DNA of 64,000 nt from Bacilli bacterium (lineage in GTDB: Bacteria > Bacillota_I > Bacilli_A > RFN20 > CAG-826). Numbering within the stretch: the stretch's first letter is position 1; the number at the start of each line of letters is the position of its first letter. The stretch covers positions 4,912 through 68,911 of the forward strand of contig JAZQOV010000011.1 in NCBI GenBank assembly GCA_045628045.1. The letters are read 5' to 3'. Of the stretch, positions 10,456 to 57,929 are shown piece by piece. The translations under genes and the position numbers were made by a program. The notes below the pieces were generated by a model that did not search any database, had not been told where the DNA came from, and was given only the letters and a program-made list of their open reading frames with translations.

Positions 10456-11802
10456 ATGAAATTTGATCATGTTACTGGAAAGTGCGTTGATCTTTCCTTT
10501 GAAGGGAAAGGCGTTGTAAAGCTTTCGTATGGAACAGTTTTTGTTGATGGCTTATTCCCTGGTGAAGAAGCTGAAATAGAAATTGAATATAAACGTGCTG
10601 GTAATTATTTTGGAAAAGTTTATAGATTAATCACAAAATCTCCAGATAGAATTCAACCAAAATGTGGTGTTTGTACTGCGTGTGGTGGATGTCAACTTCA
10701 ACAACTTTCTTACAATGCTCAACTTGCTTATAAAACTAAAAAAGTAGCAGATGCTTTTAGACGTAATAAAATAGAAAATATTGAGGTTTTTCCGTGTATT
10801 TCAATGGAAAATCCCTATGAATATCGTAATAAAATACAAGTTCCAATTGGTAGAGATCCTCATGGCCATATCGTCTCCGGATTTTATAGAAGTGGCACTC
10901 ACAAAATCATTCCGGTGGACAAATGTTGGATCGAATCAAAGGAAGCACCAAAGATAATTTCTGAAATCAAGAACTTGATGAAGGAATTTCATTATGCTCC
11001 ATATGATGAAGACACAAGAACAGGTCTTATTCGACATGTCTTAATTAGAACTTCACTTCACTATAAAGAAATCATGGTTACTCTTGTTACTAATAAAGAT
11101 GAATTCAAAGGAAAGAATAATTTCGTTAAAGCTTTAGTGAAACGTTGTCCTCAAATTACAAGCATTGTTCAAAACATTAATACGAGAGACACAAATGTAA
11201 TTCTTGGAGAAAAAGAAAGAGTCCTTTTTGGCCCTTCTGTAATTAAGGATTCAATACTTGGCGTTGACTTCTTAATTTCATCAAAATCATTCTTCCAAGT
11301 AAACCCTGTTCAAGTTGAAAATCTATACAAATTCGCCATTAATTTCGCAAATTTAAGCAAAGAAGAGAACATTTTTGATGCTTATTGTGGAATTGGAACA
11401 ATCTCGTTATGCGCATCAAAATATGTTAATAAAGTTGTTGGCGCAGAGATAGTTAAAGAAGCAATTATTGACGCTAAAAAGAACGCTAAATTAAATAATA
11501 TTAATAATGCAACTTTTGTATGCGGAGACGCTGGTGAAGTTTTAGAAACTTTAATTAATAATGGAGAAAAATTCTCGACAGTTTTTGTGGACCCTCCTCG
11601 TAAAGGATTAGATGAAAAATTTATTAAGCATCTTCTTGAGCTTGCTCCATCGAAAATCATTTATGTTTCATGTGATCCGGAAACTTTAGCAAGAGATGTA
11701 AAAATCCTTGCTGAAAAATACGAGATACAACAAGTTCAACCTGTCGACATGTTTCCGATGACATTCCACGTTGAGACTGTTGTTTGTTTATGTCTAAAAT
11801 AA
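10456..11802 (+). CDS. rlmD: 23S rRNA (uracil-C5)-methyltransferase, RumA/RlmD family
   Basis: TRAM-like N-terminus. Fe-S cysteine cluster CGVCTACGGCQLQ. SAM-binding DAYCGIGTISL, VFVDPPRKG, YVSCDPETLARD. Confidence 0.9.
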   Translation: MKFDHVTGKCVDLSFEGKGVVKLSYGTVFVDGLFPGEEAEIEIEYKRAGNYFGKVYRLITKSPDRIQPKCGVCTACGGCQLQQLSYNAQLAYKTKKVADAFRRNKIENIEVFPCISMENPYEYRNKIQVPIGRDPHGHIVSGFYRSGTHKIIPVDKCWIESKEAPKIISEIKNLMKEFHYAPYDEDTRTGLIRHVLIRTSLHYKEIMVTLVTNKDEFKGKNNFVKALVKRCPQITSIVQNINTRDTNVILGEKERVLFGPSVIKDSILGVDFLISSKSFFQVNPVQVENLYKFAINFANLSKEENIFDAYCGIGTISLCASKYVNKVVGAEIVKEAIIDAKKNAKLNNINNATFVCGDAGEVLETLINNGEKFSTVFVDPPRKGLDEKFIKHLLELAPSKIIYVSCDPETLARDVKILAEKYEIQQVQPVDMFPMTFHVETVVCLCLK

Positions 11803-11826
11803 CGATGCATTCTCGATGTGTTTTTC

Positions 11827-12711
11827 TTAATTTAATATTGATATATATTTATTCAATCTTTCCAATAAATATTTAGATATAAGTTTTTTCATTGGCTCAA
11901 GATTGTGCTTTAAATGAAATGCATCAAAAGCATCATAATAAGCACGTCTGTCGCTATATTTAATATCAATAGGTGGGAATCCTTGTTTCATTAATTCTAG
12001 ATTTAATAAGAGCCTTCCAGTTCTTCCGTTTCCATCAATAAAAGGGTGAATTGCTTCAAATTCAATATGGAATCTTGCTAATTTTGTAACAATATCTTCA
12101 TTAGATGTATTGTAGTTACAAATTAATTCATTCATTTTTGGTTCAATAGCATACGGTTGAACAGGTGTATGCTTTGAGCCCATTATTCTGACAGGGACCC
12201 TTCTGTAAACCCCTTTGTCTTGAGGTTGATCAGATAAAACCAAGGCATGTATTTGTTTAATTATACTTTCACCAATTTCAGTGTTTTCTTTCACTAAGTC
12301 GCATATAAAATCAAACGCTTCTTTGTGGCCAACAACTTCGAGATGATCTTTTAATGGTTTTTTGTCAATGGTAAGACCTCTTAGAACCATATCCGTTTCT
12401 CTTAGTGTTAATGTATTACCTTCGATGGCGTTGCTGTTATATGTGAACTCTACAACGAATTCCTCATTTAATCTTTTAATTTCGCCAGGCGTTAATGGCC
12501 TTTTAGAATCTAATATATTTTTAAGTTCTAAAATTTTGGATAAATAGTTTTCGTTGTTTTTGATTCTGCCATCAATTGGTTTTACGGCATCATCTGGTAT
12601 AAACCACGTTTTTCCATACAATTCTGCTCCATCAATTTTGCCTTCTGCACAAAGAATGCGAATCCTTCTGTCAGATATATTCCATTTTAGACTAGCTTCT
12701 TTAGTATTCAT
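11827..12711 (-). CDS. Fic family protein (class II, N-terminal HTH)
   Basis: Fic motif HPFIDGNGRTGR. Inhibitory helix motif SNAIEG ([S/T]xxxE[G/N]). N-terminal excisionase/MerR-like HTH (KEASLKWNISDRRIRILCAEGKI). Confidence 0.9.
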   Translation of the reverse strand: MNTKEASLKWNISDRRIRILCAEGKIDGAELYGKTWFIPDDAVKPIDGRIKNNENYLSKILELKNILDSKRPLTPGEIKRLNEEFVVEFTYNSNAIEGNTLTLRETDMVLRGLTIDKKPLKDHLEVVGHKEAFDFICDLVKENTEIGESIIKQIHALVLSDQPQDKGVYRRVPVRIMGSKHTPVQPYAIEPKMNELICNYNTSNEDIVTKLARFHIEFEAIHPFIDGNGRTGRLLLNLELMKQGFPPIDIKYSDRRAYYDAFDAFHLKHNLEPMKKLISKYLLERLNKYISILN

Positions 12712-12730
12712 TATCGATTGCCTCCGACTT

Positions 12731-12789
12731 TATCGGAATAATAATAACACATATCGGAATAATAATAAAGCAATATCGGAATAATATTA
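12731..12789 (-). promoter_or_regulatory. three phased direct repeats TATCGGAATAATAATAA in the fic 5' region
   Basis: Copies start at 12731, 12752 and 12774 (third ends ..ATATTA), spaced 21-22 bp. They lie between a candidate TATAAT on the minus strand (about 12811-12816) and the fic start. Confidence 0.5.
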
Positions 12790-12981
12790 AAAATGTGTTT
12801 TTGTTTCACGATTATAACGATTTGGGATACGTACCTAATTTGTTACACCAAAAGTGTAACCGCGTGTATCGGTGACTAGTAGTAACACGTGATTACAAGT
12901 GACATGTTTGTTAACATCGAGGTAGGGTTGCAAAAATGTATGTAACACGGTAATAAAATGGTAATGGTTTTCCTATTGTTT

Positions 12982-13008
12982 TTGACAAAAATTTAGTTTC
13001 AGTATAAT
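12982..13008 (+). promoter_or_regulatory. candidate sigma-A promoter of the LRR surface-protein gene
   Basis: TTGACA (12982-12987) and TATAAT (13003-13008). The spacer is only 15 nt, so confidence is moderate. Confidence 0.4.
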
Positions 13009-13167
13009 ACAGTTATATGACAGCCACGTATAGGCAAAACACTAATCATACGTCTTGTTACGGTACATGTGGAGACTGTCGTTTCGTTAATTTTTAAGCA
13101 AAAATAGCAAATTGTTGTTGCTCCCTGCAATTTGACTTTTATATATTGTTTCTTTACAATTCATATT

Positions 13168-15582
13168 ATGAATTACTTTAAAAACATCAGTAAAAACACA
13201 AAAATATTGGCGATTTTGCCGTCATTTTTCTTAACTCTAGTTTCGTTTGTCTCGATAGGACACGACAAAATATCTGAAGTAAAAGCAGAAGAAAATAAGA
13301 TTTTTATAGCAATTGATAGCACAGAAGGAATTGGCTACATTTCGTCTGTCGATAATGATTTAATTCGTGGGACAAATTATTTTTGCGAAGTTGATCCAAC
13401 TTTAACTCGTTCAGCGACAATCTTTTTACAAGATAAATACCAAGGATCCCAAGATTACTTAGGAGACATAAAAAAAGTCGTAATTTTAGATAATGTCGAG
13501 CTTAATAACTGTTCCTTCCTCTTTGGAAATCTCGAAAATCTAGAAACTATTGAGAATTTAGGAAACATTAGTGTTCCAGTATGTTCATCTTTCGAATATA
13601 TGTTCAGTGGTTCTCCAAAATTAAGAGAAGTGGATTTTACAGGTTTTGATGTTTCTAATTGCAGTAGTTTTAAAAACATGTTTTATGACTGTGCACTTGA
13701 AACAATAGATTTATCTGATTTTGACACTTCAAGTTGTGGTGATTTCCACTATATGTTCGATTCATGTCGCAATTTAACATCCTTAGATTTATCTTCTTTT
13801 GATACAAGAAATGCTTCGTCAATGGTAGGCATGTTTTCTGGATGCTCTTCATTAGAATATCTCGATATTTCAAGTTTTGATTTATCAAATAGCCCACGCA
13901 CTGATGAATTTTTATTTGGCACAAAACCAAAAGTTATTGTTGCGCCTAAGTGTGTTCCGGAGCACGCAGTTGATAATATTGTTAAATTTGATCTTCCTCA
14001 AGAAACAGAAGAAAAACCTTACTATTATGATTATGACCTCAACACTTATGAGGAAATGGCTGAATCCAATAAATCTATAACTTATTATCACCACTCATTA
14101 ATACGTACGCTTGAATCTGCGTCGTTTACTTGTTCAAATTCTTTTAAAGAATACGAAGATTTAGATAATTTAGATATTGATGAATTAATTTCGCATTGGG
14201 ACTTCCTTTACGATACGCTTTTTGGATTTCTTCCAAAGAAAGACAATGAACCAATTTACACAATTTTAGAAAAATGCAAGGCTGACACCATCAACGTTGA
14301 AGTAGGAAAATGGCTCACTATTTATGACAAGGTTTATCCACACTATTGCCATGCTTTACAAGAATGTGGTGGAGACTTTTTGAATAGATGTCCAGACGCA
14401 TTAGATCCTGATGGTCTTGTTCATATTGGAGTAAATACAGATGAAAATATTGGTTATCTTTCTTCTTTTGATACCTACGAAATCTTAAAATCTGATTTGC
14501 GAACAAAAGTCGATTTATCCGTGAAAACCATAGGAAATTCAGTATTTTCTCTCTTAGATTCGAATGGATATGAAGATATTACTAAAGTCGTAATTCAAGA
14601 TGAAATTAGTCTTTCGGATTGCTCAAATTTCTTTAAAGGTTTGACCAATCTTGTTTTAATTGATGGAATGAAAAAAGTAAATACTGAGCTCAACACAAAA
14701 TGTATTTCAATGTTTGAGGATTGTTCTAAATTAGAATCTGTTGACTTATCTGCATTTAACACAGAGAAGGTTATTGTTACAGATTGCATGTTTAAAGGAT
14801 GCGTATCGTTAGGAGAAATTACTGGACTTTCTTTCACCTCAAAAACATTAGTTTCTATGTCAGAGATGTTCTCAGGATGCCAAGCCTTAGTATTACTTGA
14901 TTTATCTAGTTATGATTTAACTAACGTAGAAAACACCTTTAATTGTATTTATAATACAACTCCTAATTATATTAAGACTCCAAAAGCGATGCCTACTAAA
15001 GCAAATTGCGATATAGATTTGTATTTCCCTATGGGCATTATAAATTTTGGTTACTACGATTTGTCTTTTGCTACATACACCAAATTACCAAGTATCAATA
15101 GTTCCATTACATTAATTAGTGAAATCGGCAAATATGTCTTAGAAGATTTCTGTGATGATTTTGGTAAAGACACCGCGTATTATTGCGATGCAAACGGAAA
15201 TACAGCAGAAGCAAAATTAATTAGTCTTTGGGAAGGGCAATCTAAGGAATTCAATAAGCACTTTAAAGGTACTCAACACGAATGTTTATTAGAATTCTTT
15301 GGGAAAGATAATTCTTCATGTACTAACACTTCATTGAAGAATTTCTCGGCAAAATATGACTATATTTACGGAAAATACCAATCATTTTTAGATGAACATG
15401 GTGGAGATTTCGCTAATAGATCAAAGCTTATTTCATTCCCAAATAGTTCAGCATTTATTCGTTTCAATCACACTACAAATGAGTCATCTGTTTTAATAAT
15501 TTGTATTATTTCTATTGCTAGCGTTTCAACATTAATTTGTTTAGTGTTTACAAAAAAGCGTATTTCTGCTAAAAGGAAATAA
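13168..15582 (+). CDS. BspA/DUF285-type leucine-rich-repeat surface protein, internally duplicated, C-terminal TM anchor
   Basis: ATG at 13168 gives a signal/anchor peptide; the track start at 13132 is TTG. Repeats of the form C..L..LDLSSFDTS...M..MF.GC. The two halves (about aa 40-420 and 420-800) share the same architecture. Hydrophobic C-terminus followed by KKRISAKRK. Confidence 0.8.
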   Translation: MNYFKNISKNTKILAILPSFFLTLVSFVSIGHDKISEVKAEENKIFIAIDSTEGIGYISSVDNDLIRGTNYFCEVDPTLTRSATIFLQDKYQGSQDYLGDIKKVVILDNVELNNCSFLFGNLENLETIENLGNISVPVCSSFEYMFSGSPKLREVDFTGFDVSNCSSFKNMFYDCALETIDLSDFDTSSCGDFHYMFDSCRNLTSLDLSSFDTRNASSMVGMFSGCSSLEYLDISSFDLSNSPRTDEFLFGTKPKVIVAPKCVPEHAVDNIVKFDLPQETEEKPYYYDYDLNTYEEMAESNKSITYYHHSLIRTLESASFTCSNSFKEYEDLDNLDIDELISHWDFLYDTLFGFLPKKDNEPIYTILEKCKADTINVEVGKWLTIYDKVYPHYCHALQECGGDFLNRCPDALDPDGLVHIGVNTDENIGYLSSFDTYEILKSDLRTKVDLSVKTIGNSVFSLLDSNGYEDITKVVIQDEISLSDCSNFFKGLTNLVLIDGMKKVNTELNTKCISMFEDCSKLESVDLSAFNTEKVIVTDCMFKGCVSLGEITGLSFTSKTLVSMSEMFSGCQALVLLDLSSYDLTNVENTFNCIYNTTPNYIKTPKAMPTKANCDIDLYFPMGIINFGYYDLSFATYTKLPSINSSITLISEIGKYVLEDFCDDFGKDTAYYCDANGNTAEAKLISLWEGQSKEFNKHFKGTQHECLLEFFGKDNSSCTNTSLKNFSAKYDYIYGKYQSFLDEHGGDFANRSKLISFPNSSAFIRFNHTTNESSVLIICIISIASVSTLICLVFTKKRISAKRK

Positions 15583-15607
15583 TTAAGTAATATAGGAGGA
15601 ATAAATA

Positions 15608-16525
15608 ATGAAAAATAACTTTAATAAGGCAGCGTTGTTATTACCAATTATTTTAACTTCGTGTTCTTTAGCGACTTCCGGAGAAAAAGCAAAAAATTTT
15701 TACGACAAAATTTGTGATGAGATAATAGAATTTGGAAACCCTAGAGATGATGATTTTGCTATTTCTTTCAAAGGTCGTTACAAAATTGGTGATGTCGAGA
15801 TTAGAAATATTGACGGCTTTTTCGATGGTAGATTTATAAATATTATTGGTGATTATTATAACGAAAGACTGACCGCAAAATATTATACATTTGATGAACT
15901 AGGCGAAAACGGATTGCCTTATCCATATACTTACTCATCTTTGTTAAATTCAGAAAATGAAACAGTTCTTGTTAGTAGAAGAAAACCATTTGATGGAATA
16001 CAAAATTATTGTGTTTTCCCGGACAAAATTGATGAATATAACGAAATTTACAATAATATTTTTAGAGTTTCGATATGTATAATGGAGTATGGATTATTTG
16101 CTTCTGATCGTTATAGTGAAGAATCGCTCAAACAAGTTTTCTTGTTAGCTGATGAAGAAAGAATTGAATTTGATTTATCAGATCGCGTTAAGTATAGTTA
16201 TGAAAAGAATGAAAATCTTGTTTTTACGATTTCTAGCGATTTAGATTCAATTGGGCCTTTTACTATTCTTTCTCCGGATCAATCAGTCAGATTTGCATAT
16301 TGGAATAAAATGGCAAACGGACCGACAGGAAATTATTGGAAGAAAATCACGGTAGATAAGAAAACATATCAAGTTAAGAAAGTTGAAGTTTCATATAAAG
16401 GAATTGATACAAGATTATTACCAGGCGCGTCGACAGACTTTTATTTTGAATTTGAGCCTCGTGAGCAAAGCACTTCATCTTATAAAGATCAATTTAAGAT
16501 AAGTTGCGATTCATATTTTGATTAA
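15608..16525 (+). CDS. lipoprotein, function unknown
   Basis: GGAGG RBS. Signal peptide with lipobox ILTSC. Confidence 0.7.
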   Translation: MKNNFNKAALLLPIILTSCSLATSGEKAKNFYDKICDEIIEFGNPRDDDFAISFKGRYKIGDVEIRNIDGFFDGRFINIIGDYYNERLTAKYYTFDELGENGLPYPYTYSSLLNSENETVLVSRRKPFDGIQNYCVFPDKIDEYNEIYNNIFRVSICIMEYGLFASDRYSEESLKQVFLLADEERIEFDLSDRVKYSYEKNENLVFTISSDLDSIGPFTILSPDQSVRFAYWNKMANGPTGNYWKKITVDKKTYQVKKVEVSYKGIDTRLLPGASTDFYFEFEPREQSTSSYKDQFKISCDSYFD

Positions 16526-16531
16526 GATAAA

Positions 16532-16560
16532 GCATCCTTAAAAGGATGCATTTTCTTTTT
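16532..16560 (+). terminator. intrinsic terminator
   Basis: GCATCC-ttaaaa-GGATGC followed by ATTTTCTTTTT. Confidence 0.7.
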
Positions 16561-16587
16561 AAAAATGGATTTTTAGAAAATAATTAA

Positions 16588-16617
16588 TTGAATCTTTGCA
16601 TCAAAATTAGTTATAAT
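16588..16617 (+). promoter_or_regulatory. promoter cassette P, copy 1
   Basis: TTGAAT-N18-TATAAT. Near-identical cassettes at 16857-16886 and 17439-17468. Confidence 0.6.
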
Positions 16618-16623
16618 ATTTTT

Positions 16624-16698
16624 ACCACAATACACCTTATGGTGTGATTAGTGATTAAGATCGGTGTTTCGACCGCTTAGTGCGGTGCCGGTCTTTTT
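16624..16698 (+). ncRNA. candidate sRNA 'RNA-A', copy 1 (orphan)
   Basis: Begins about 7 nt after the TATAAT. 5' hairpin CACAATACACC/GGTGTGATTAGTG. GC-rich nested hairpin GATCGG..ACCGC-ttagt-GCGGT..CCGGTC followed by T5. No plausible ORF. Confidence 0.5.
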
Positions 16699-16759
16699 CT
16701 TTCCGGATAAAGTTTATATATTGTATTTTACATAATATTATTCTTTGTTATAATAATGA

Positions 16760-16828
16760 TGCGGTTGCGATAAAAGGCTTATGCCTCGCAGTGCAATTAG
16801 GGCACCTTAATGGCAGCCTTTTTCTTTT
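16760..16828 (+). ncRNA. candidate sRNA 'RNA-B'
   Basis: Own promoter TTTACA (16727-16732), N16, TGtTATAAT (16746-16754). GC-rich alternative helices (TGCGA/TCGCA, GTGC/GCAC, AAAAGGCT../..AGCCTTTT). T-runs on both sides, so it may act as a bidirectional terminator. Confidence 0.35.
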
Positions 16829-16856
16829 TAAAAATAATATTTTAGAAAATAATGAA

Positions 16857-16886
16857 TTGAATTTTTACATCAAAATTAGTTATAAT
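16857..16886 (+). promoter_or_regulatory. promoter cassette P, copy 2
   Basis: TTGAAT-N18-TATAAT, near-identical to copy 1. Confidence 0.6.
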
Positions 16887-16892
16887 ATTTTT

Positions 16893-16968
16893 ACCACAAT
16901 ACACCTTATGGTGTGATTAGTGATAAAGATCGGTGTTTCGACCGCTTAGCGCGGTGCCGGTCTTTTTT
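16893..16968 (+). ncRNA. candidate sRNA 'RNA-A', copy 2, antisense to the 3' end of the minus-strand ORF 16917-17312
   Basis: Same hairpins as copy 1, with differences confined to the linker, loop and T-run. Overlaps the stop codon and last ~17 codons of the convergent gene. Confidence 0.5.
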
Positions 16969-17312
16969 CTTTCTAGATAAAGTTCATATATTGTATCTGA
17001 CTTAAGAACATCCTTTTTGGACAACCCCCTTTTTATGTACTTCTCGCTATAGGTTTTCGCAGGGTAACTCCTAATTCTTTGTATAAAATAACTCTGCAAC
17101 GAATTATTTACTTTAAATGGTTTACATAACTTCGTATTTGCCTTGCCTTCCGAATAAGGCTTTGAAGTCAAAAAAACACTTGATAAGATTAGCCCATCTT
17201 TTGTAGCTATAATTGCTTTAATGTGGCCATAATGTCCATGTTTATAATTATAACGAATTTGCCCAATTCTATAATTTCTTCCGATATTGATTTTAATAAT
17301 TTGTTTGCACAT
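16917..17312 (-). CDS. PemK/MazF-like (SH3-fold) putative toxin, no adjacent protein antitoxin
   Basis: AAGGAG RBS. Pattern match by eye to the MazF/Kid layout: IGQIRYNY.., HIKAIIATKDGLILSSVFLTSKP (..TS motif), SYFIQRIRSYPAKTY...GLSKKDV. Weak, unverified similarity. Confidence 0.4.
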   Translation of the reverse strand: MCKQIIKINIGRNYRIGQIRYNYKHGHYGHIKAIIATKDGLILSSVFLTSKPYSEGKANTKLCKPFKVNNSLQSYFIQRIRSYPAKTYSEKYIKRGLSKKDVLKSDTIYELYLERKKTGTALSGRNTDLYH

Positions 17313-17327
17313 GTTGTTGTCTCCTTG

Positions 17328-17419
17328 GGCTCAAGAATATTTTACCATCTCTAAAGCAAGCCGATTCCCGTTTTTCATAACATTTTAAAGAACATAGTTC
17401 TTTCTTTTTAAAATTCAAC
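17328..17419. repeat. ~91-bp upstream-region repeat, copy X (second copy at 51903-51993)
   Basis: Homologous by eye to 51903-51993. Contains the palindrome AAAGAAC-N3-GTTCTTT (17387-17403), a conserved CCCGTTTTTCATAAC block and a minus-strand TGnTAAAAT extended -10. Confidence 0.7.
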
Positions 17420-17438
17420 ATTTTTAGAAAACAATGAA

Positions 17439-17468
17439 TTGAATTTTTTCATCAAAATTAGTTATAAT
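17439..17468 (+). promoter_or_regulatory. promoter cassette P, copy 3 (drives the SAM riboswitch)
   Basis: TTGAAT (17439-17444), N18, TATAAT (17463-17468). Flanks are homologous to copies 1 and 2 up to ..TATAATATTTTTACCA. Confidence 0.6.
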
Positions 17469-17474
17469 ATTTTT

Positions 17475-17600
17475 ACCATAAAGAGTACGGCGAGGGACAA
17501 GCCCTATGACCCGTCAGCAACCTGCGTATAGCAAGGTGCTAAAGCTTGACTGATGGTTGTTTTTATTTTATAAGCCGTCAGTATCGATGGCTTTTAATTT
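17475..17600 (+). promoter_or_regulatory. SAM-I (S-box) riboswitch with terminator/antiterminator expression platform
   Basis: S-box core strings in order: ACCAT-AAAGAG..GAGGGAC..AGCCCTATGA..CCGTCAGCAACC..AAGGTGCTAAA..ATGGT. Terminator AAGCCGTC-agtatc-GATGGCTT followed by TTTAATTT (17572-17600). ACTGATGG (17549-17556) can instead pair with CCGTCAGT (17575-17582) as an antiterminator. Confidence 0.8.
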
Positions 17601-17625
17601 CTTTGTGGTAGATAAGGAGGCTTAT

Positions 17626-17880
17626 ATGCCACAGAAAACATTACAAAACGATCTTTACGTAGTCGTTATCTCTTCTAAAGAAGAAAGAGATGAACTTAAA
17701 GCATTATGCGTAAAACATAACATTCCTCTTCTTTATCCAGAGTTATTTAAGGAAGAGGAGATTCATCACTTATGGGGAATCTCTAAAAACGGTGTTGCTT
17801 TAGTGGGCACAATGATTGCAAGACATACACCTAAAGAGAATATATTTCATTCTGTTAAAGAACTGGAATGTATTCTCTAA
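17626..17880 (+). CDS. 84-aa protein of unknown function under SAM-riboswitch control
   Basis: ATG at 17626 preceded by AAGGAGG. The track start at 17557 lies inside the riboswitch terminator. No recognisable motif. Confidence 0.6.
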   Translation: MPQKTLQNDLYVVVISSKEERDELKALCVKHNIPLLYPELFKEEEIHHLWGISKNGVALVGTMIARHTPKENIFHSVKELECIL

Positions 17881-18043
17881 TATCTTTTCTTGATAGAGAA
17901 GCGTAAGCAAGTTCTCGTATAACAAGAAAAGTGCGCTAAATTTCAATCCTTAAATGTCTATTAAATTAGCATCACGGTTAACACTTGCTCGTATTTACTA
18001 GGGGAAGCGGTAGTTATCTTTTCTTAAATTGCGCTATTTCCTG

Positions 18044-49868: not shown

Positions 49869-49995
49869 CTACCCCCACTTAAACATTCTATGTTTAGAAG
49901 ATGGGGGATTCCTACTCAAGAATCCTCGAGGATTCAGTGTCGATAGGCTAACCCCGTAGTTCCTACGGTTTGGTGGACTACCACTATTGTTTTTG
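49869..49995 (-). ncRNA. candidate TnpB omega/right-end RNA scaffold
   Basis: Unusually GC-rich stretch abutting the tnpB 3' end. Minus-strand hairpins CCGTAG-gaa-CTACGG, GAATCCTCGAGGATTC and CCCCCATCTTCTAAACAT-agaa-TGTTTAAGTGGGGG, ending at the element boundary. Confidence 0.55.
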
Positions 49996-51132
49996 AAGTA
50001 CTAATCTAATTCCTTCTTTTTTGATATTAATTGCTGCATTTATATCTCTATCATGCTTTCTACCACAGATAGGACAAATCCAATCTCTATCATTTAATTC
50101 AAGACTTTTGTTGATGTAACCACAATCACTGCAAGTTTTACTAGACGGAAAGTACCTATCTACTTTTATTAATTCCTTACCTAACCATCTTAATTTGTAA
50201 TCTAGAAAATTGACAAAAGTTCCATATGCTCGATCAGATAGATTTCTGCCCAACTTCATTTTTGTATCTTTTGATTGCATTGATTTCAAATCTAAATTTT
50301 CTACAAAAACATAATCGTATTTATTTGCAATTTTTCTGGATTCTTTATGCAAAAAATCTTTCCTAGAATTTGAAATATGAAGTTGAAGTTTTCTGACTTT
50401 TTGCCAGGATTTAATGGAGTTTTTGCTACCTTTTTGGCATTTTGATGCTCTTCTGGTTAATTTTGCAAGTTTCTCCATTTCGTTTTGAAGATACTTTGGC
50501 ATATCTGCGTGATTGCCATCGCTATCGACATAAAGATGTGACAAAGAAAAATCTAATCCTATTGAGTTGTTGATATCAAGTTTTTCAAGCTTGTCGAATA
50601 ACTCGACGTTTGGATTATCTTCTTCACCAGTCAATGTCACAAAATACATGTTTGCAACTCTAGAGATGGTGACTGTGGTAAAAGAGAATGATTCAGGCAT
50701 CAAACGAGATACTACAACTTTAACTCTGCCTAATTTAGGAATTTGGATTTCGTTACCATCAAGGCGGAGGTTATTGTTGATTTTCATAGTTGTGTAGCTA
50801 TGATCATTTCTTTTGGATTTAAATTTTGGAAAAGAACCTCTATGTTCAAAGAAATTAATATACGCAGCATGTAAATGAATAATGGCTTGTTGCAAAGCAA
50901 CACTATCAACTTCTTTTAAGTATTCATACCCTTCTTTGTAATCAGGAAGTATTTTGACTAAATCAAATTTTCTCAATTTAAAAGAAGGATCTTCCGCGTG
51001 CTTTTCGACACACATTTCAAGAAAATCATTATAGACTTGGCGAACGCATCCTAAAGTTTTCTCAATTTGTTGTTTTTGAGAAGAATTAGGATAGATTCGA
51101 AATTTATAAGCTTTCTTTATTTTCTTTTCCAT
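49984..51132 (-). CDS. tnpB: TnpB (OrfB_IS605) RNA-guided endonuclease
   Basis: RuvC-like IGLDFS, VFVENLDLKSM, RDINAAINI. Zn finger CSDCG...CPICG. N-terminal YKFRIYPN typical of OrfB. Confidence 0.9.
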   Translation of the reverse strand: MEKKIKKAYKFRIYPNSSQKQQIEKTLGCVRQVYNDFLEMCVEKHAEDPSFKLRKFDLVKILPDYKEGYEYLKEVDSVALQQAIIHLHAAYINFFEHRGSFPKFKSKRNDHSYTTMKINNNLRLDGNEIQIPKLGRVKVVVSRLMPESFSFTTVTISRVANMYFVTLTGEEDNPNVELFDKLEKLDINNSIGLDFSLSHLYVDSDGNHADMPKYLQNEMEKLAKLTRRASKCQKGSKNSIKSWQKVRKLQLHISNSRKDFLHKESRKIANKYDYVFVENLDLKSMQSKDTKMKLGRNLSDRAYGTFVNFLDYKLRWLGKELIKVDRYFPSSKTCSDCGYINKSLELNDRDWICPICGRKHDRDINAAINIKKEGIRLVLQKQ

Positions 51133-51239: not shown

Positions 51240-51887
51240 TTAGATAAATCTAAAACCTGAGCCTAGTTCTAAAAGGAATTCTTTCATGTGCGTTATAATA
51301 CCTTTTTCAATTTCTTTTTCCCTAAGGTTAAAACCTTTTTTGAAGAAATTAATTACAATCGGATCTACCATTACATCTTTTGGTTCAACAATCTGATTCC
51401 CAAGAGTGGATAATTGATTCTTTTTTGCCTCTATATTTTCTTTTGAGCCCAGTAAGATTCTTTGATAGTATCCCGATTGTATTTGTCTTTTTAAATCCCT
51501 GACAGACCATCTTTGTTTTGCACACTCTATTTCATAGAATTTTCTTTCTTCATCATTTTTTACATTTAGAAGACAAAAGTAATGCCCCCATGATAAAGTG
51601 GGAAACAGTGTTTCCCAATTTTTATATATAATATAAAAATTTAACATTGCTTTAATGTTTCTTCTTGAATACCCAGAGCCGAATTCTTTGGTTAGCTCAT
51701 TAGAAATTGAACTAATCGTGCGCTTTTTATAATCGCTTTTTCCTTTATTGGAGTCGATGTCTTTTTGAATTTGTTCCCCTATATACATATAAAGCTTAAG
51801 TAATTCAGTATTAACGTTATATATGATTTTTGCCTTCGTTGTTTCTATTGCATTTTTTAAATTTATTACTAGTTTATTTTCTTTCAT
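51240..51887 (-). pseudogene. DUF1016/YhcG-type nuclease, N-terminal fragment
   Basis: GGAGGAGG RBS. WSVRDLKRQIQSGYYQRIL and ..FLLELGSGFRFI* match the DUF1016 N-region layout. The stop is created at the IS junction. Confidence 0.75.
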
Positions 51888-51902
51888 AACCTTTCCTCCT
51901 CC

Positions 51903-51993
51903 GGCTTAAGAACATTTTAACATCTCTGAGGCTAACTGATTCCCGTTTTTCATAACACTCTAAAGAACAAAGTTCTTTCTTTTGAAAATTGAC
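51903..51993. repeat. ~91-bp upstream-region repeat, copy Y
   Basis: Homologous to 17328-17419. Palindrome AAAGAAC-aaa-GTTCTTT at 51962-51978. Minus-strand TGtTAAAAT. Confidence 0.7.
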
Positions 51994-57868: not shown

Positions 57869-57929
57869 ATCAGGCGAGATGGGTCTGACAAAAGGAAAGA
57901 GATTGGCTGCTACCAATCTCTTTTTCATA
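57869..57929 (+). ncRNA. candidate sRNA module A (tandem copy)
   Basis: TTGCAA (57835-57840), N18, TAATAT. The transcript starts AUCAGGCG... Perfect 11-bp terminator stem AAAGAGATTGG/CCAATCTCTTT (57896-57923) followed by TTTC. Confidence 0.45.

What the first reader, a model, noticed from the sequence alone, without database searches (positions are those of the whole stretch)
16553..17312. Duplicated promoter-sRNA modules, one antisense to the 3' end of an orphan MazF-like toxin gene
Two ~175-bp units (16553-16726 and 16822-16996) differ at only a few positions by eye. Each carries TTGAAT-N18-TATAAT, a ~75-nt non-coding transcript with a 5' hairpin, and a GC-rich nested terminator followed by a U-run.

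Copy 2 converges on the 131-aa minus-strand ORF (16917-17312) and overlaps its stop codon and last ~17 codons. That ORF has a PemK/MazF-like sequence pattern but no neighbouring protein antitoxin gene. Copy 1 retains only ~22 nt of the gene's 3' end, with the frame broken by a 1-nt change in the T-run. It therefore looks like an orphan RNA left after loss of a second toxin copy.

Convergent 3'-overlapping sRNAs are the architecture of Bacillus type I TA loci (txpA/RatA, bsrG/SR4). There, however, the toxin is a small membrane peptide. An RNA antitoxin for a MazF-fold protein would be an unusual hybrid.
Basis: partly seen in the sequence, partly recalled or inferred. Interest (0 to 1): 0.78.

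Follow-up and report, generated by a model that had tools for sequence, protein, structure and literature searches.

The report
MazF-fold protein with convergent small RNA
A rare, unannotated protein predicted to fold like the MazF/ToxN RNA-cutting toxins is followed, in all 13 relatives examined, by a tiny hairpin RNA gene pointing back at its end, which looks like a new toxin / RNA-antitoxin pair, though neither transcription nor toxicity has been tested.

Summary

**The RNA units.** Two ~176-bp units (about 93% identical) each carry TTGAAT-N18-TATAAT, a 5' hairpin and a nested GC-rich terminator with a U-run. Copy 2 overlaps the stop codon and last 17 codons of the minus-strand 131-aa ORF.

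**The protein.**
- It is under purifying selection: dN/dS is 0.06-0.10 over codons 1-113.
- Synonymous change collapses where the RNA hairpin overlaps (pS 0.08-0.15 against 0.71-0.81).
- It matches no Pfam, NCBIfam, PADLOC, PHROG or PDB sequence profile.

**The family.** It is tiny: 15 cluster representatives among 1.84 billion. All 13 distinct members examined have a convergent sigma-70-like promoter, a nested hairpin and a U-run at the gene's 3' end. The outer stem covaries, and G·U pairs occur almost only on the sRNA strand.

**Best reading.** This is a new toxin / RNA-antitoxin module. It most likely works by antisense pairing at the mRNA 3' end (type I-like). Direct protein-RNA binding (type III-like) is a live rival. 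Toxicity and transcription are untested.

Copy 1 is a strain-variable extra RNA copy attached to an 81-nt toxin remnant.

The parts
16532..16549 (+). Intrinsic terminator hairpin of the upstream lipoprotein-like gene (15608-16525). It forms the left edge of the repeated 'terminator-promoter' cassette of copy 1.
   Evidence: Terminator scan. Homologous to 16802-16820 ahead of copy 2.
16588..16617 (+). Promoter of sRNA copy 1 (TTGAAT-N18-TATAAT).
16624..16702 (+). sRNA copy 1: 5' hairpin 16626-16653, nested terminator hairpin 16657-16695, then a U-run. No intact toxin gene lies opposite it.
   Evidence: Fold -28.7 kcal/mol, z -4.42. Covariance model (CM) hit of 56.3 bits.
16647..16726 (-). Remnant of the last ~27 codons plus stop of an ORF131-like gene. 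The frame is broken by a 1-nt shorter T/A run.
   Evidence: blastn of L001, L002 and L003 against the window. Pairwise alignment.
16727..16825 (+). Spacer between the copies. It has its own strong promoter (TTTACA-N16-TGTTATAAT, 16727-16754) and a possible ~65-nt hairpin RNA ending in a U-run. Function unknown; not part of the repeat.
   Evidence: Promoter scan scored 11/12. The fold is not better than shuffles, z -0.67. Present in strain L003.
16857..16886 (+). Promoter of sRNA copy 2 (TTGAAT-N18-TATAAT).
16893..16972 (+). sRNA copy 2: 5' hairpin 16895-16922, nested terminator hairpin 16925-16965 (outer stem, 6-nt 5' bulge, inner stem ACCGC/GCGGU), and U-run 16963-16972. It is antisense to the stop codon and last 17 codons of ORF131.
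   Evidence: Fold z -4.56. CM hit of 61.5 bits. Covariation. Synonymous-site suppression in the overlapped codons.
16917..17312 (-). ORF131: a 131-aa, basic (pI 10.0), hydrophilic protein with a predicted MazF/Kid/CcdB/ToxN-like fold. Putative toxin.
17313..17411 (-). ORF131 ribosome-binding site (AAGGAG, 17321-17326), 5' UTR and a candidate promoter (TTAAAA-N18-TAAAAT, 17411-17382). The promoter spacer holds the palindrome AAAGAAC-N3-GTTCTTT (about 17388-17404). The region is about 85% identical to 51892-51990.
17439..17593 (+). Third copy of the same promoter (17439-17468), driving a SAM-I riboswitch (17473-17559) and its terminator (17572-17593) ahead of ORF 17626-17880. It is a neighbour that shares the promoter cassette, not a part of the toxin/sRNA module.
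   Evidence: Rfam RF00162 at 51.8 bits against a gathering score of 44.4..

Best explanation
ORF131 and the convergent small RNA form a previously undescribed two-gene module. It pairs a small basic MazF/Kid/ToxN-fold protein, probably an RNA-targeting toxin, with an RNA antitoxin.

**Proposed mechanism (type I-like).**
1. A strong constitutive promoter fires towards the 3' end of the toxin gene. It makes a 45-80-nt RNA that is little more than a nested, bulged terminator hairpin. In the window's subgroup the RNA also has a 5' stabiliser hairpin.
2. The RNA is perfectly complementary to the 3' end or 3' UTR of the toxin mRNA. That mRNA has no U-run terminator of its own there and must read through the region.
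3. Loop-loop contact, aided by the conserved bulge, leads to a duplex. The duplex removes or opens the mRNA's 3' hairpin and exposes it to RNase III and 3' exonucleases. This keeps toxin synthesis low, as in bsrG/SR4 and txpA/RatA.
4. Copy 1 supplies a second, nearly identical RNA that can act in trans.

**Shown here:** the RNA gene's anatomy, its conservation, covariation and strand; the coding status of the ORF; its fold class; and the universal gene-RNA linkage.

**Inferred:** transcription, toxicity, the antisense mechanism and the RNases involved.
For: 1. **Linkage.** Every family member with a readable 3' flank has the convergent element. That is 13 distinct proteins: window, L001, L002, L004, L006, L007, L013, L016, L017, L019, L020, L022 and L023. 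The element consists of a promoter, a nested hairpin and a U-run.
   - Three members not used to build the model were found by covariance model R1 at exactly that place: P0018, P0020 and P0022, in loci L019, L020/L021 and L022 (E 1e-4 to 0.017).
   - P0019 (L023/L024) was missed by R1 and was recognised only by reading the sequence.
2. **RNA structure under selection, on the sRNA strand.**
   - 88.6% of cells are paired, against 39-56% when the partners are slid.
   - 7 of 14 pairs show changes on both sides.
   - There are 15 G·U cells against 1 A·C cell.
   - The U-run is always on the sRNA strand.
   - In the 5' hairpin, 3 of 5 pairs are compensatory.
3. **Promoter placement.** A site scoring at least 10/12 has its -10 box ending 3-8 nt before the hairpin in 6 of 8 short-form loci, and 38-40 nt before it in the long form. 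Background density is 0.001-0.003 per position.
4. **Overlap constraint.** pS is 0.08-0.15 in codons 114-131 against 0.71-0.81 elsewhere.
6. **Context.**
   - The gene stands alone, with no protein-antitoxin gene beside it.
   - It sits in a strain-variable island with Fic, SoFic-like and HTH-RelE/YafQ genes.
   - In L004 it lies next to BrnT/BrnA.
7. **Hairpin design.** A 5-6-nt loop, a short upper stem, a bulge and a long lower stem match classic antisense RNAs such as CopA and Sok. This comparison rests on my own knowledge.
Against: - No experiment of any kind is available. Transcription, toxicity and neutralisation are untested.
- The inner-stem sequence ACC...GGU(G/A)C is conserved across members with about 30% protein identity, even where the hairpin is non-coding. 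A purely cis-antisense mechanism does not require this. It hints at recognition by a protein.
- The overlap is short and consists of a very stable hairpin on both RNAs, so full duplex formation is kinetically demanding.
- The sRNA shows no complementarity to the 5' UTR or ribosome-binding site. 37% of shuffles pair as well. Translation cannot therefore be blocked directly.
- Classical type I toxins are hydrophobic peptides under 60 aa. This protein is 131 aa with GRAVY -0.63.
- Several homologs have N-terminal hydrophobic segments (P0014, P0017, P0019) and sit inside same-strand gene strings of unknown function. Neither is typical of MazF toxins.
Confidence: 0.45

Rival explanations
1. Type III-like protein-RNA module. 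The hairpin RNA binds the MazF/ToxN-fold protein directly, as an inhibitor or pseudo-substrate, and sequesters it. The convergent position only guarantees co-inheritance and high RNA dosage.
For: - The protein is very basic, pI 10.
- ACC...GGU(G/A)C and a UUA-rich loop are conserved across very divergent members, including loci where the hairpin lies entirely outside the ORF (L013, L017, L019, L022). Cis-antisense pairing does not require this.
- The position of the stop codon relative to the hairpin drifts: before it, inside it, or beyond it. This suggests that overlap with the coding sequence is incidental.
Against: - The defining type III layout is absent. That layout is a tandem array of 34-36-nt repeats upstream on the same strand, separated from the toxin gene by a terminator (PMC5086642). 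TRF finds no array, and the RNA is on the opposite strand.
- There is no sequence match to ToxN, CptN or TenpN families.
- No binding data exist, and co-folding could not be done with these tools.
Confidence: 0.25
2. Not a toxin-antitoxin pair. The protein is a non-toxic RNA- or DNA-binding protein of mobile elements, and the convergent RNA is an ordinary cis-antisense regulator or insulator of its expression.
For: - Distant homologs lie inside same-strand strings of uncharacterised genes on ~13-kb contigs.
- Some have N-terminal hydrophobic segments.
- There is no sequence evidence for MazF catalytic residues.
Against: - The patchy distribution, strain variability and TA/defence neighbours fit an addiction or defence module.
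- The tight, universal pairing with a strong promoter making a dedicated RNA is typical of antitoxins.
Confidence: 0.17
3. The hairpin is only a terminator, bidirectional or protective, and the 'sRNA' is a by-product with no function.
For: The element has the form of an intrinsic terminator. An A-run precedes it on the mRNA strand.
Against: - The U-run is on the strand opposite to all neighbouring genes in most loci, so the terminator can only serve a transcript that starts in the short gap. A near-consensus promoter sits there at a fixed distance.
- The G·U bias shows selection on that strand.
- Sequence and architecture (bulge, ACC/GGU) are conserved far beyond what a generic terminator needs.
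Confidence: 0.06

Closest known systems
Bacillus subtilis type I TA systems with 3'-overlapping antitoxins (bsrG/SR4, txpA/RatA, yonT/SR6)
   Same: - A convergent small RNA with its own promoter overlaps the 3' end of the toxin mRNA in a Firmicute-type genome.
- The expected outcome is RNase III-dependent mRNA decay (PMC8309996, PMC5848175).
- yonT/SR6 also targets a polycistronic mRNA, as the distant homologs here would.
   Different: - The toxin here is a 131-aa hydrophilic, basic protein with a MazF-like fold, not a membrane peptide under 60 aa.
- The overlap is only the terminator hairpin (about 45-54 nt).
- The RNA's sequence and architecture are conserved across a protein family.
- No effect on the ribosome-binding site can be predicted.
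Enterococcus faecalis par (fst / RNA II)
   Same: Convergent toxin mRNA and antitoxin RNA share one terminator stem-loop, whose loops make first contact. This rests on my own knowledge.
   Different: - par also uses 5' direct repeats that pair over the translation start. No such second pairing region exists here.
- Fst is a 33-aa membrane peptide.
Type III TA systems (ToxIN, CptIN, TenpIN, AbiQ/antiQ)
   Same: - The toxin has a Kid/MazF-like endoribonuclease fold and is neutralised by an RNA (PMC5086642).
   Different: - The antitoxin is not a tandem repeat array, is not upstream and is not on the same strand.
- There is no sequence relationship to the ToxN, CptN or TenpN families.
Type II MazEF / PemIK (Kid-Kis) / CcdAB
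   Different: - No PF02452 or any other profile match.
- No upstream protein-antitoxin gene.
- The partner is an RNA.
Cytosolic type I toxins SymE/SymR and RalR/RalA
   Same: Precedent for non-membrane, nuclease-type toxins controlled by antisense RNA (PMC8309996).
   Different: - SymE is AbrB-like, a different fold (my own knowledge).
- The antisense pairing geometry differs.
- They occur in Proteobacteria.
- They share no sequence or structural relationship with this family.

Membership tests
Type II PemK/MazF toxin family (Pfam PF02452) | Significant match to the PemK/MazF sequence profile | tested here: not met
   - Pfam gave 0 families at E<=1 for ORF131 and none for the 15 family members.
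- NCBIfam gave 0.
- hhalign of the family profile against E. coli MazF plus B. subtilis EndoA gave 0.6% probability. Both reference sequences were verified against PDB 3nfc_A and 4me7_A.
- A PDB sequence search found no toxin.
Type II PemK/MazF toxin family | CcdB/MazF fold (SH3-like barrel plus C-terminal helix) | tested here: met
   - The AF2 model has pLDDT 86.1 and pTM 0.79.
- The top Foldseek PDB hits are MazF, with probability 0.99 and TM 0.5-0.6 but E only 0.05.
- This is a prediction, not a solved structure.
Type II PemK/MazF toxin family | Co-operonic protein antitoxin gene (MazE/PemI-like) next to the toxin | tested here: not met
   - Only 127 nt separate the ORF131 start from the next, divergent promoter.
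- The one small upstream ORF (17293-17421, 42 aa) has no ribosome-binding site. It is not preserved in the homologous region at 51892-51990.
- Neighbours differ in every homologous locus.
Type I toxin-antitoxin systems | Antitoxin is an RNA encoded antisense to, and able to base-pair with, the toxin mRNA | tested here: met
   - A convergent promoter, hairpin and U-run overlap the gene's 3' end or 3' UTR in all 13 members examined.
- This holds at the level of sequence anatomy only. Transcription was not tested.
Type I toxin-antitoxin systems | Toxin is a small (<60 aa) hydrophobic membrane peptide (the majority class; SymE and RalR are exceptions) | tested here: not met
   131 aa, GRAVY -0.63, pI 10.0, 26 K+R. 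The classes are defined in PMC8309996.
Type I toxin-antitoxin systems | Toxin over-expression is toxic and the RNA represses toxin mRNA translation or stability | not testable with these tools
   Needs induction and rescue experiments, plus RNA half-life and RNase III assays.
Type III toxin-antitoxin systems (ToxIN/CptIN/TenpIN) | Antitoxin is a tandem array of short direct repeats upstream of the toxin gene on the same strand, separated by a terminator | tested here: not met
   - TRF finds only a 15-nt AT-rich 1.9-copy repeat within 16000-18200.
- The direct repeats present are the 176-bp units on the opposite strand.
- The definition is taken from PMC5086642.
Type III toxin-antitoxin systems (ToxIN/CptIN/TenpIN) | Toxin belongs to the ToxN/AbiQ, CptN or TenpN sequence families | tested here: not met
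Type III toxin-antitoxin systems (ToxIN/CptIN/TenpIN) | RNA binds and inhibits the toxin protein directly | not testable with these tools
   Needs binding assays or a complex structure. The conserved ACC...GGU(G/A)C motif is only suggestive.
Intrinsic (Rho-independent) terminator | GC-rich hairpin followed by a U-run on the transcribed strand | tested here: met
   Folds. The U-run holds 5-7 U in 8 nt on the sRNA strand in 12 of 12 loci, against 1-5 on the mRNA strand.
Any described RNA family (Rfam 15) | Match to a curated covariance model | tested here: not met
   No hit for the sRNA at gathering thresholds or at E<=10. Only the neighbouring SAM-I riboswitch matches.

The most novel reading that the evidence does not exclude
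A new class of toxin-antitoxin system: a MazF/ToxN-fold endoribonuclease toxin held in check by one single-hairpin RNA transcribed convergently from just beyond the toxin gene. The RNA works in two ways at once. It is antisense to the toxin mRNA's 3' end, and the toxin protein recognises it through the conserved ACC...GGU(G/A)C bulged hairpin. That would make it a type I / type III hybrid, confined to a very small, dark-matter lineage of gut Bacilli and their mobile elements.
Probability: 0.2. Interest if true: 0.85.

Novelty: new variant of a known kind. Interest (0 to 1): 0.72.

Why it matters
- **Bridging TA classes.** RNA-antitoxin systems are currently split in two. Type I has an antisense RNA and almost always a membrane peptide. 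Type III has a repeat RNA that binds a Kid-like RNase. A Kid/MazF-fold protein family invariably wedded to a convergent single-hairpin RNA would bridge the two. It would add a third example, after SymE and RalR, of an enzyme-type toxin under antisense control.
- **A search strategy.** Fold prediction combined with conserved flanking RNA structure can expose TA or defence modules that every sequence-profile library misses.
- **A tractable test system.** The element is small (about 0.5 kb) and has clear, mutually exclusive predictions: a recoded 3' end against inner-stem mutants.
- **A possible tool.** The hairpin plus promoter could serve as a compact regulatory part.

Tried and rejected
- **Known RNA family?** Rfam at gathering and at E<=10 gave nothing for the sRNA. 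A riboswitch or attenuator reading was considered. The ACACC/GGUGU alternative pairing with the terminator is not conserved in L001 or L002, so I rejected it.
- **Sequence annotation of the protein.** No hits in:
  - Pfam, NCBIfam, PADLOC, PHROGs and PDB sequences;
  - hhalign against MazF/EndoA;
  - tblastn in INPHARED phages and PLSDB plasmids.
- **More relatives.**
  - With 5 sequences, GTDB genomes gave one true locus, L007, and one spurious one, L008.
  - JGI metagenomes and IMG/VR gave none.
  - A 20-mer of the hairpin in JGI metagenomes gave 4 chance hits in GC-rich coding DNA (L009-L012).
- **Second sRNA pairing site on the ORF131 5' UTR or ribosome-binding site (par-like).** The pairing is not better than shuffles.
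- **ToxI-like repeats.** None found.
- **The ~500-aa ORFs upstream of distant homologs as a conserved third component.** They are not homologous to one another, apart from near-identical contigs, and they match no family.
- **HUH/IS200-type DNA hairpin element.** Considered from the H-x-H motif and the hairpin. Rejected because the fold is an all-beta barrel plus a helix and because of the promoter, U-run and G·U strand evidence.
- **Technical failures.** The first structure job was lost. The afdb50 library was unavailable.
Full report
**1. What is in the sequence**

Window 16200-17700 was read directly. Two units, 16551-16726 and 16821-16996, are about 93% identical. The local alignment extends with lower identity to 16532-16746 against 16802-17016, with 191/217 identical.

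Each unit contains, in order:
- a terminator-like hairpin with a T-run;
- an AT-rich stretch;
- TTGAAT-N18-TATAAT;
- a transcript beginning ACCA;
- a 5' hairpin;
- a nested GC-rich hairpin (outer stem, 6-nt 5' bulge, inner stem ACCGC/GCGGU);
- a U-run.

Chance does not explain this. The promoter pattern occurs 3 times in 64 kb against 0 expected, and the hairpin core occurs twice against 0 expected. Both RNAs fold far better than shuffles, z = -4.4 and -4.6.

It drives a bona fide SAM-I riboswitch (RF00162, 51.8 bits against a gathering score of 44.4) with its own terminator, ahead of an 84-aa ORF of unknown function.

No Rfam family matches the small RNA. Copy 2 overlaps the stop codon and last 17 codons of the minus-strand ORF 16917-17312.

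**2. The ORF is a real gene**

Only two close relatives exist among 5.8 billion proteins: P0002 at 78% and P0003 at 71% identity.

| Region | pS | dN/dS |
|---|---|---|
| Codons 1-113 | 0.71-0.81 (saturated) | 0.06-0.10 where dS could be estimated |
| Codons 114-131 (overlapped by the RNA hairpin) | 0.08-0.15 | 0.46-1.61 |

Synonymous sites are therefore close to frozen in the 18 codons that the RNA hairpin overlaps, although non-synonymous changes still occur there. That is the signature of a second, nucleotide-level constraint laid over a coding sequence.

**3. What the protein is**

Sequence methods find nothing. Pfam, NCBIfam, PADLOC, PHROGs and PDB sequences all give no match.

An exhaustive HMMER profile search of 1.84 billion cluster representatives found only 12 further proteins with E<1e-3. 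The family is extremely small. Its members share these motifs:
- IR[YF]N[YF]+H-x-H-x-[GA]H;
- TSVF+S[ST]K;
- N[IV]PM;
- YF+xR+RTYPxxTY;
- LSxxDxxxSxxIY.

None of the members has a Pfam domain.

AlphaFold2 on the 15-sequence alignment gave a confident model: pLDDT 86.1, pTM 0.79, eight strands and a C-terminal helix.
- **Foldseek:** it agrees in ranking but with weak E-values.
- **Profile-profile comparison:** against verified E. coli MazF and B. subtilis EndoA it is negative, at 0.6% probability.

The protein is MazF-like in predicted fold only. It is basic (pI 10.0) and hydrophilic.

**4. The RNA accompanies the whole family**

I fetched the DNA for 12 further distinct family members. Each has the same element on the strand opposite to the gene, at or just past its 3' end. 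The element has four parts:
- a sigma-70-like promoter;
- a nested hairpin with a 6-10-bp outer stem of different sequence in each locus, a ~6-nt 5' bulge, an inner stem ACCNN/NNGGU and a 5-6-nt loop;
- [G/A]C closing into the outer stem;
- a U-run.

The stop codon lies in a different place from locus to locus:

| Stop codon position | Loci |
|---|---|
| Beyond the hairpin | window, L001, L002, L004 |
| In its loop or bulge | L006, L007, L020, L023 |
| Just before it | L013, L016, L017, L019, L022 |

The hairpin, not the overlap with coding sequence, is therefore the conserved anchor.

**Model test.** Covariance model R1 was built from ten sequences.
- It finds only the two copies in the 64-kb window with E < 0.01.
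- It recovered the element at the expected place in three members that were not used to build it, in loci L019, L020/L021 and L022 (E 1e-4 to 0.017).
- It missed L023, which has a longer bulge. There the element is plain by eye.

**Covariation.**
- 88.6% of cells are paired, against 39-56% for slid partners.
- 7 of 14 pairs show double-sided changes.
- No shuffle out of 500 reached the observed covariation score.

**Strand.**
- 15 cells are G·U, which pairs only on the sRNA strand. Only 1 is A·C, which would pair only on the mRNA strand.
- The U-run is always on the sRNA strand.

**Promoters.** Sites scoring at least 10/12 end 3-8 nt before the hairpin in 6 of 8 short-form loci. In the long form (window, L001) they end 38-40 nt before it. 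Background density is 0.001-0.003 per position.

**Two forms.** In most members the RNA is essentially the hairpin plus its tail, about 45-50 nt. The window's subgroup adds a 5' hairpin in which 3 of 5 pairs are compensatory among three sequences.

**5. Context**

- **This window.** ORF131 stands alone between the sRNA and a divergent SAM-riboswitch unit. The surrounding island holds a Fic gene (11827-12711), a SoFic-like gene (18156-19214) and an HTH antitoxin plus RelE/YafQ toxin pair (19725-20605).
- **Strain variation.** A closely related strain contig (L003, 98% identical) lacks 11789-13065 and 13117-16735. It therefore lacks copy 1, the DUF285 LRR gene and the lipoprotein-like gene. There the methyltransferase gene is followed directly by the spacer promoter, copy 2 and the toxin gene.
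- **Other close homologs.** In L004 the homolog lies next to BrnT/BrnA. In L007, a horse-faeces Bacilli MAG, it sits between mutS2 and an RNase HIII-like gene.
- **Distant homologs.** They sit inside same-strand strings of uncharacterised genes on contigs of up to ~13 kb. The sRNA gene is embedded antisense in the gap after the toxin-like gene.

**6. Mechanism**

The data establish a conserved protein-gene / convergent-sRNA-gene pair. The fold class, the absence of a protein partner, the patchy and strain-variable distribution and the TA/defence neighbours point to a toxin with an RNA antitoxin.

I favour an antisense, type I-like mechanism. The mRNA has no U-run terminator of its own, so it must traverse the complementary hairpin. 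The bulged, small-loop hairpin is the classic design of fast-pairing antisense RNAs (my own knowledge). In Firmicutes, 3'-overlapping antitoxins such as SR4 trigger RNase III-dependent decay (PMC8309996; SR6 in PMC5848175).

Three points count against a purely antisense view:
- ACC...GGU(G/A)C is conserved even where the hairpin is non-coding. Cis-complementarity does not require that.
- The sRNA has no pairing potential with the ribosome-binding-site region.
- The fold is as close to the type III toxin CptN as to MazF.

Direct protein-RNA binding (type III-like) therefore remains a serious rival, and the two mechanisms could coexist. The canonical type III layout of upstream tandem repeats on the same strand (PMC5086642) is absent.

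**7. Copy 1**

Copy 1 has an intact promoter and both hairpins (56.3 bits). It also carries an 81-nt frameshifted remnant of the toxin's 3' end.

It differs from copy 2 by about 7%, more than the ~2% divergence between the two strains. It is absent from L003. So it is either an older duplication or an import that arrived with the adjacent 3.6-kb block.

Its RNA could pair with the ORF131 mRNA almost as well as copy 2's RNA, so it may act as a spare antitoxin. 'Left after loss of a second toxin copy' is possible but not demonstrated.

**8. Novelty**

Full-text searches found no description of an antisense-controlled MazF-like toxin. The protein family is unannotated everywhere I looked.

I rate this a new variant of a known kind (RNA-antitoxin TA systems), resting on strong comparative evidence for the RNA and fold-level evidence for the protein. 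Function is entirely untested.

Noticed in passing
window 17439-17880: A SAM-I riboswitch (17473-17559, RF00162, 51.8 bits) with terminator 17572-17593 controls an 84-aa ORF (17626-17880). The ORF matches no family in Pfam, NCBIfam, PADLOC or PHROGs. The riboswitch is driven by a third, about 92% identical copy of the promoter cassette used by the two sRNAs. This is an unusual cargo for a SAM riboswitch.
   Followed up: partly
window 16727-16825: The spacer between the two sRNA copies has its own near-consensus extended -10 promoter (TTTACA-N16-TGTTATAAT). It could give a ~65-nt RNA ending in a hairpin plus U-run. The fold is not better than shuffles (z -0.67), there is no Rfam hit, and the region is conserved in strain L003.
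   Followed up: partly
window 17313-17415 and 51892-51990: The ORF131 promoter and 5' UTR are about 85% identical to the region upstream of ORF 51240-51887. That ORF is a DUF1016/YhcG PDDEXK-nuclease gene that appears truncated next to a TnpB/IS605 OrfB gene (49984-51132). Both regions carry the palindrome AAAGAAC-N3-GTTCTTT between candidate -35 and -10 boxes, which suggests a shared operator. On the plus strand the same palindrome plus T-run could terminate read-through antisense transcripts.
   Followed up: partly
window 11789-16735 against L003: Strain polymorphism. A 98%-identical contig lacks two blocks: 11789-13065 (Fic gene), and 13117-16735 (DUF285 LRR surface protein, lipoprotein-like gene, sRNA copy 1). 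Window 13066-13116 is a duplicated 3' end of the tRNA U5-methyltransferase-like gene (10456-11802).
   Followed up: partly
window 11827-12711, 18156-19214, 19725-20605: A TA/defence island surrounds the finding. It holds a Fic-domain protein, a SoFic-like protein (PADLOC 4.5e-34), and an HTH (HipB/Y4mF-like) antitoxin gene overlapping a RelE/YafQ toxin gene.
   Followed up: partly
P0014, P0017, P0019 (loci L013-L015, L023-L024): Some family members carry an N-terminal hydrophobic segment that looks like a transmembrane helix ahead of the MazF-like domain. Their start codons overlap the stop of a large upstream ORF (460-621 aa, no known domains). This is unusual for MazF-fold toxins.
   Followed up: no
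L019 3-1427 and L020 3039-5192: A P-loop (GxxGxGKT) protein of 474+ and 717 aa is shared at 26% identity between two distant-homolog loci. It lies on different sides of the toxin-like gene in the two loci. The contigs of ~13 kb consist of same-strand dark-matter genes and may be small mobile elements or phages.
   Followed up: no
window 57890-57921 (-): Weak hit of the sRNA hairpin model R1 (23 bits, E 0.05). It is probably a generic terminator and not a third copy.
   Followed up: no
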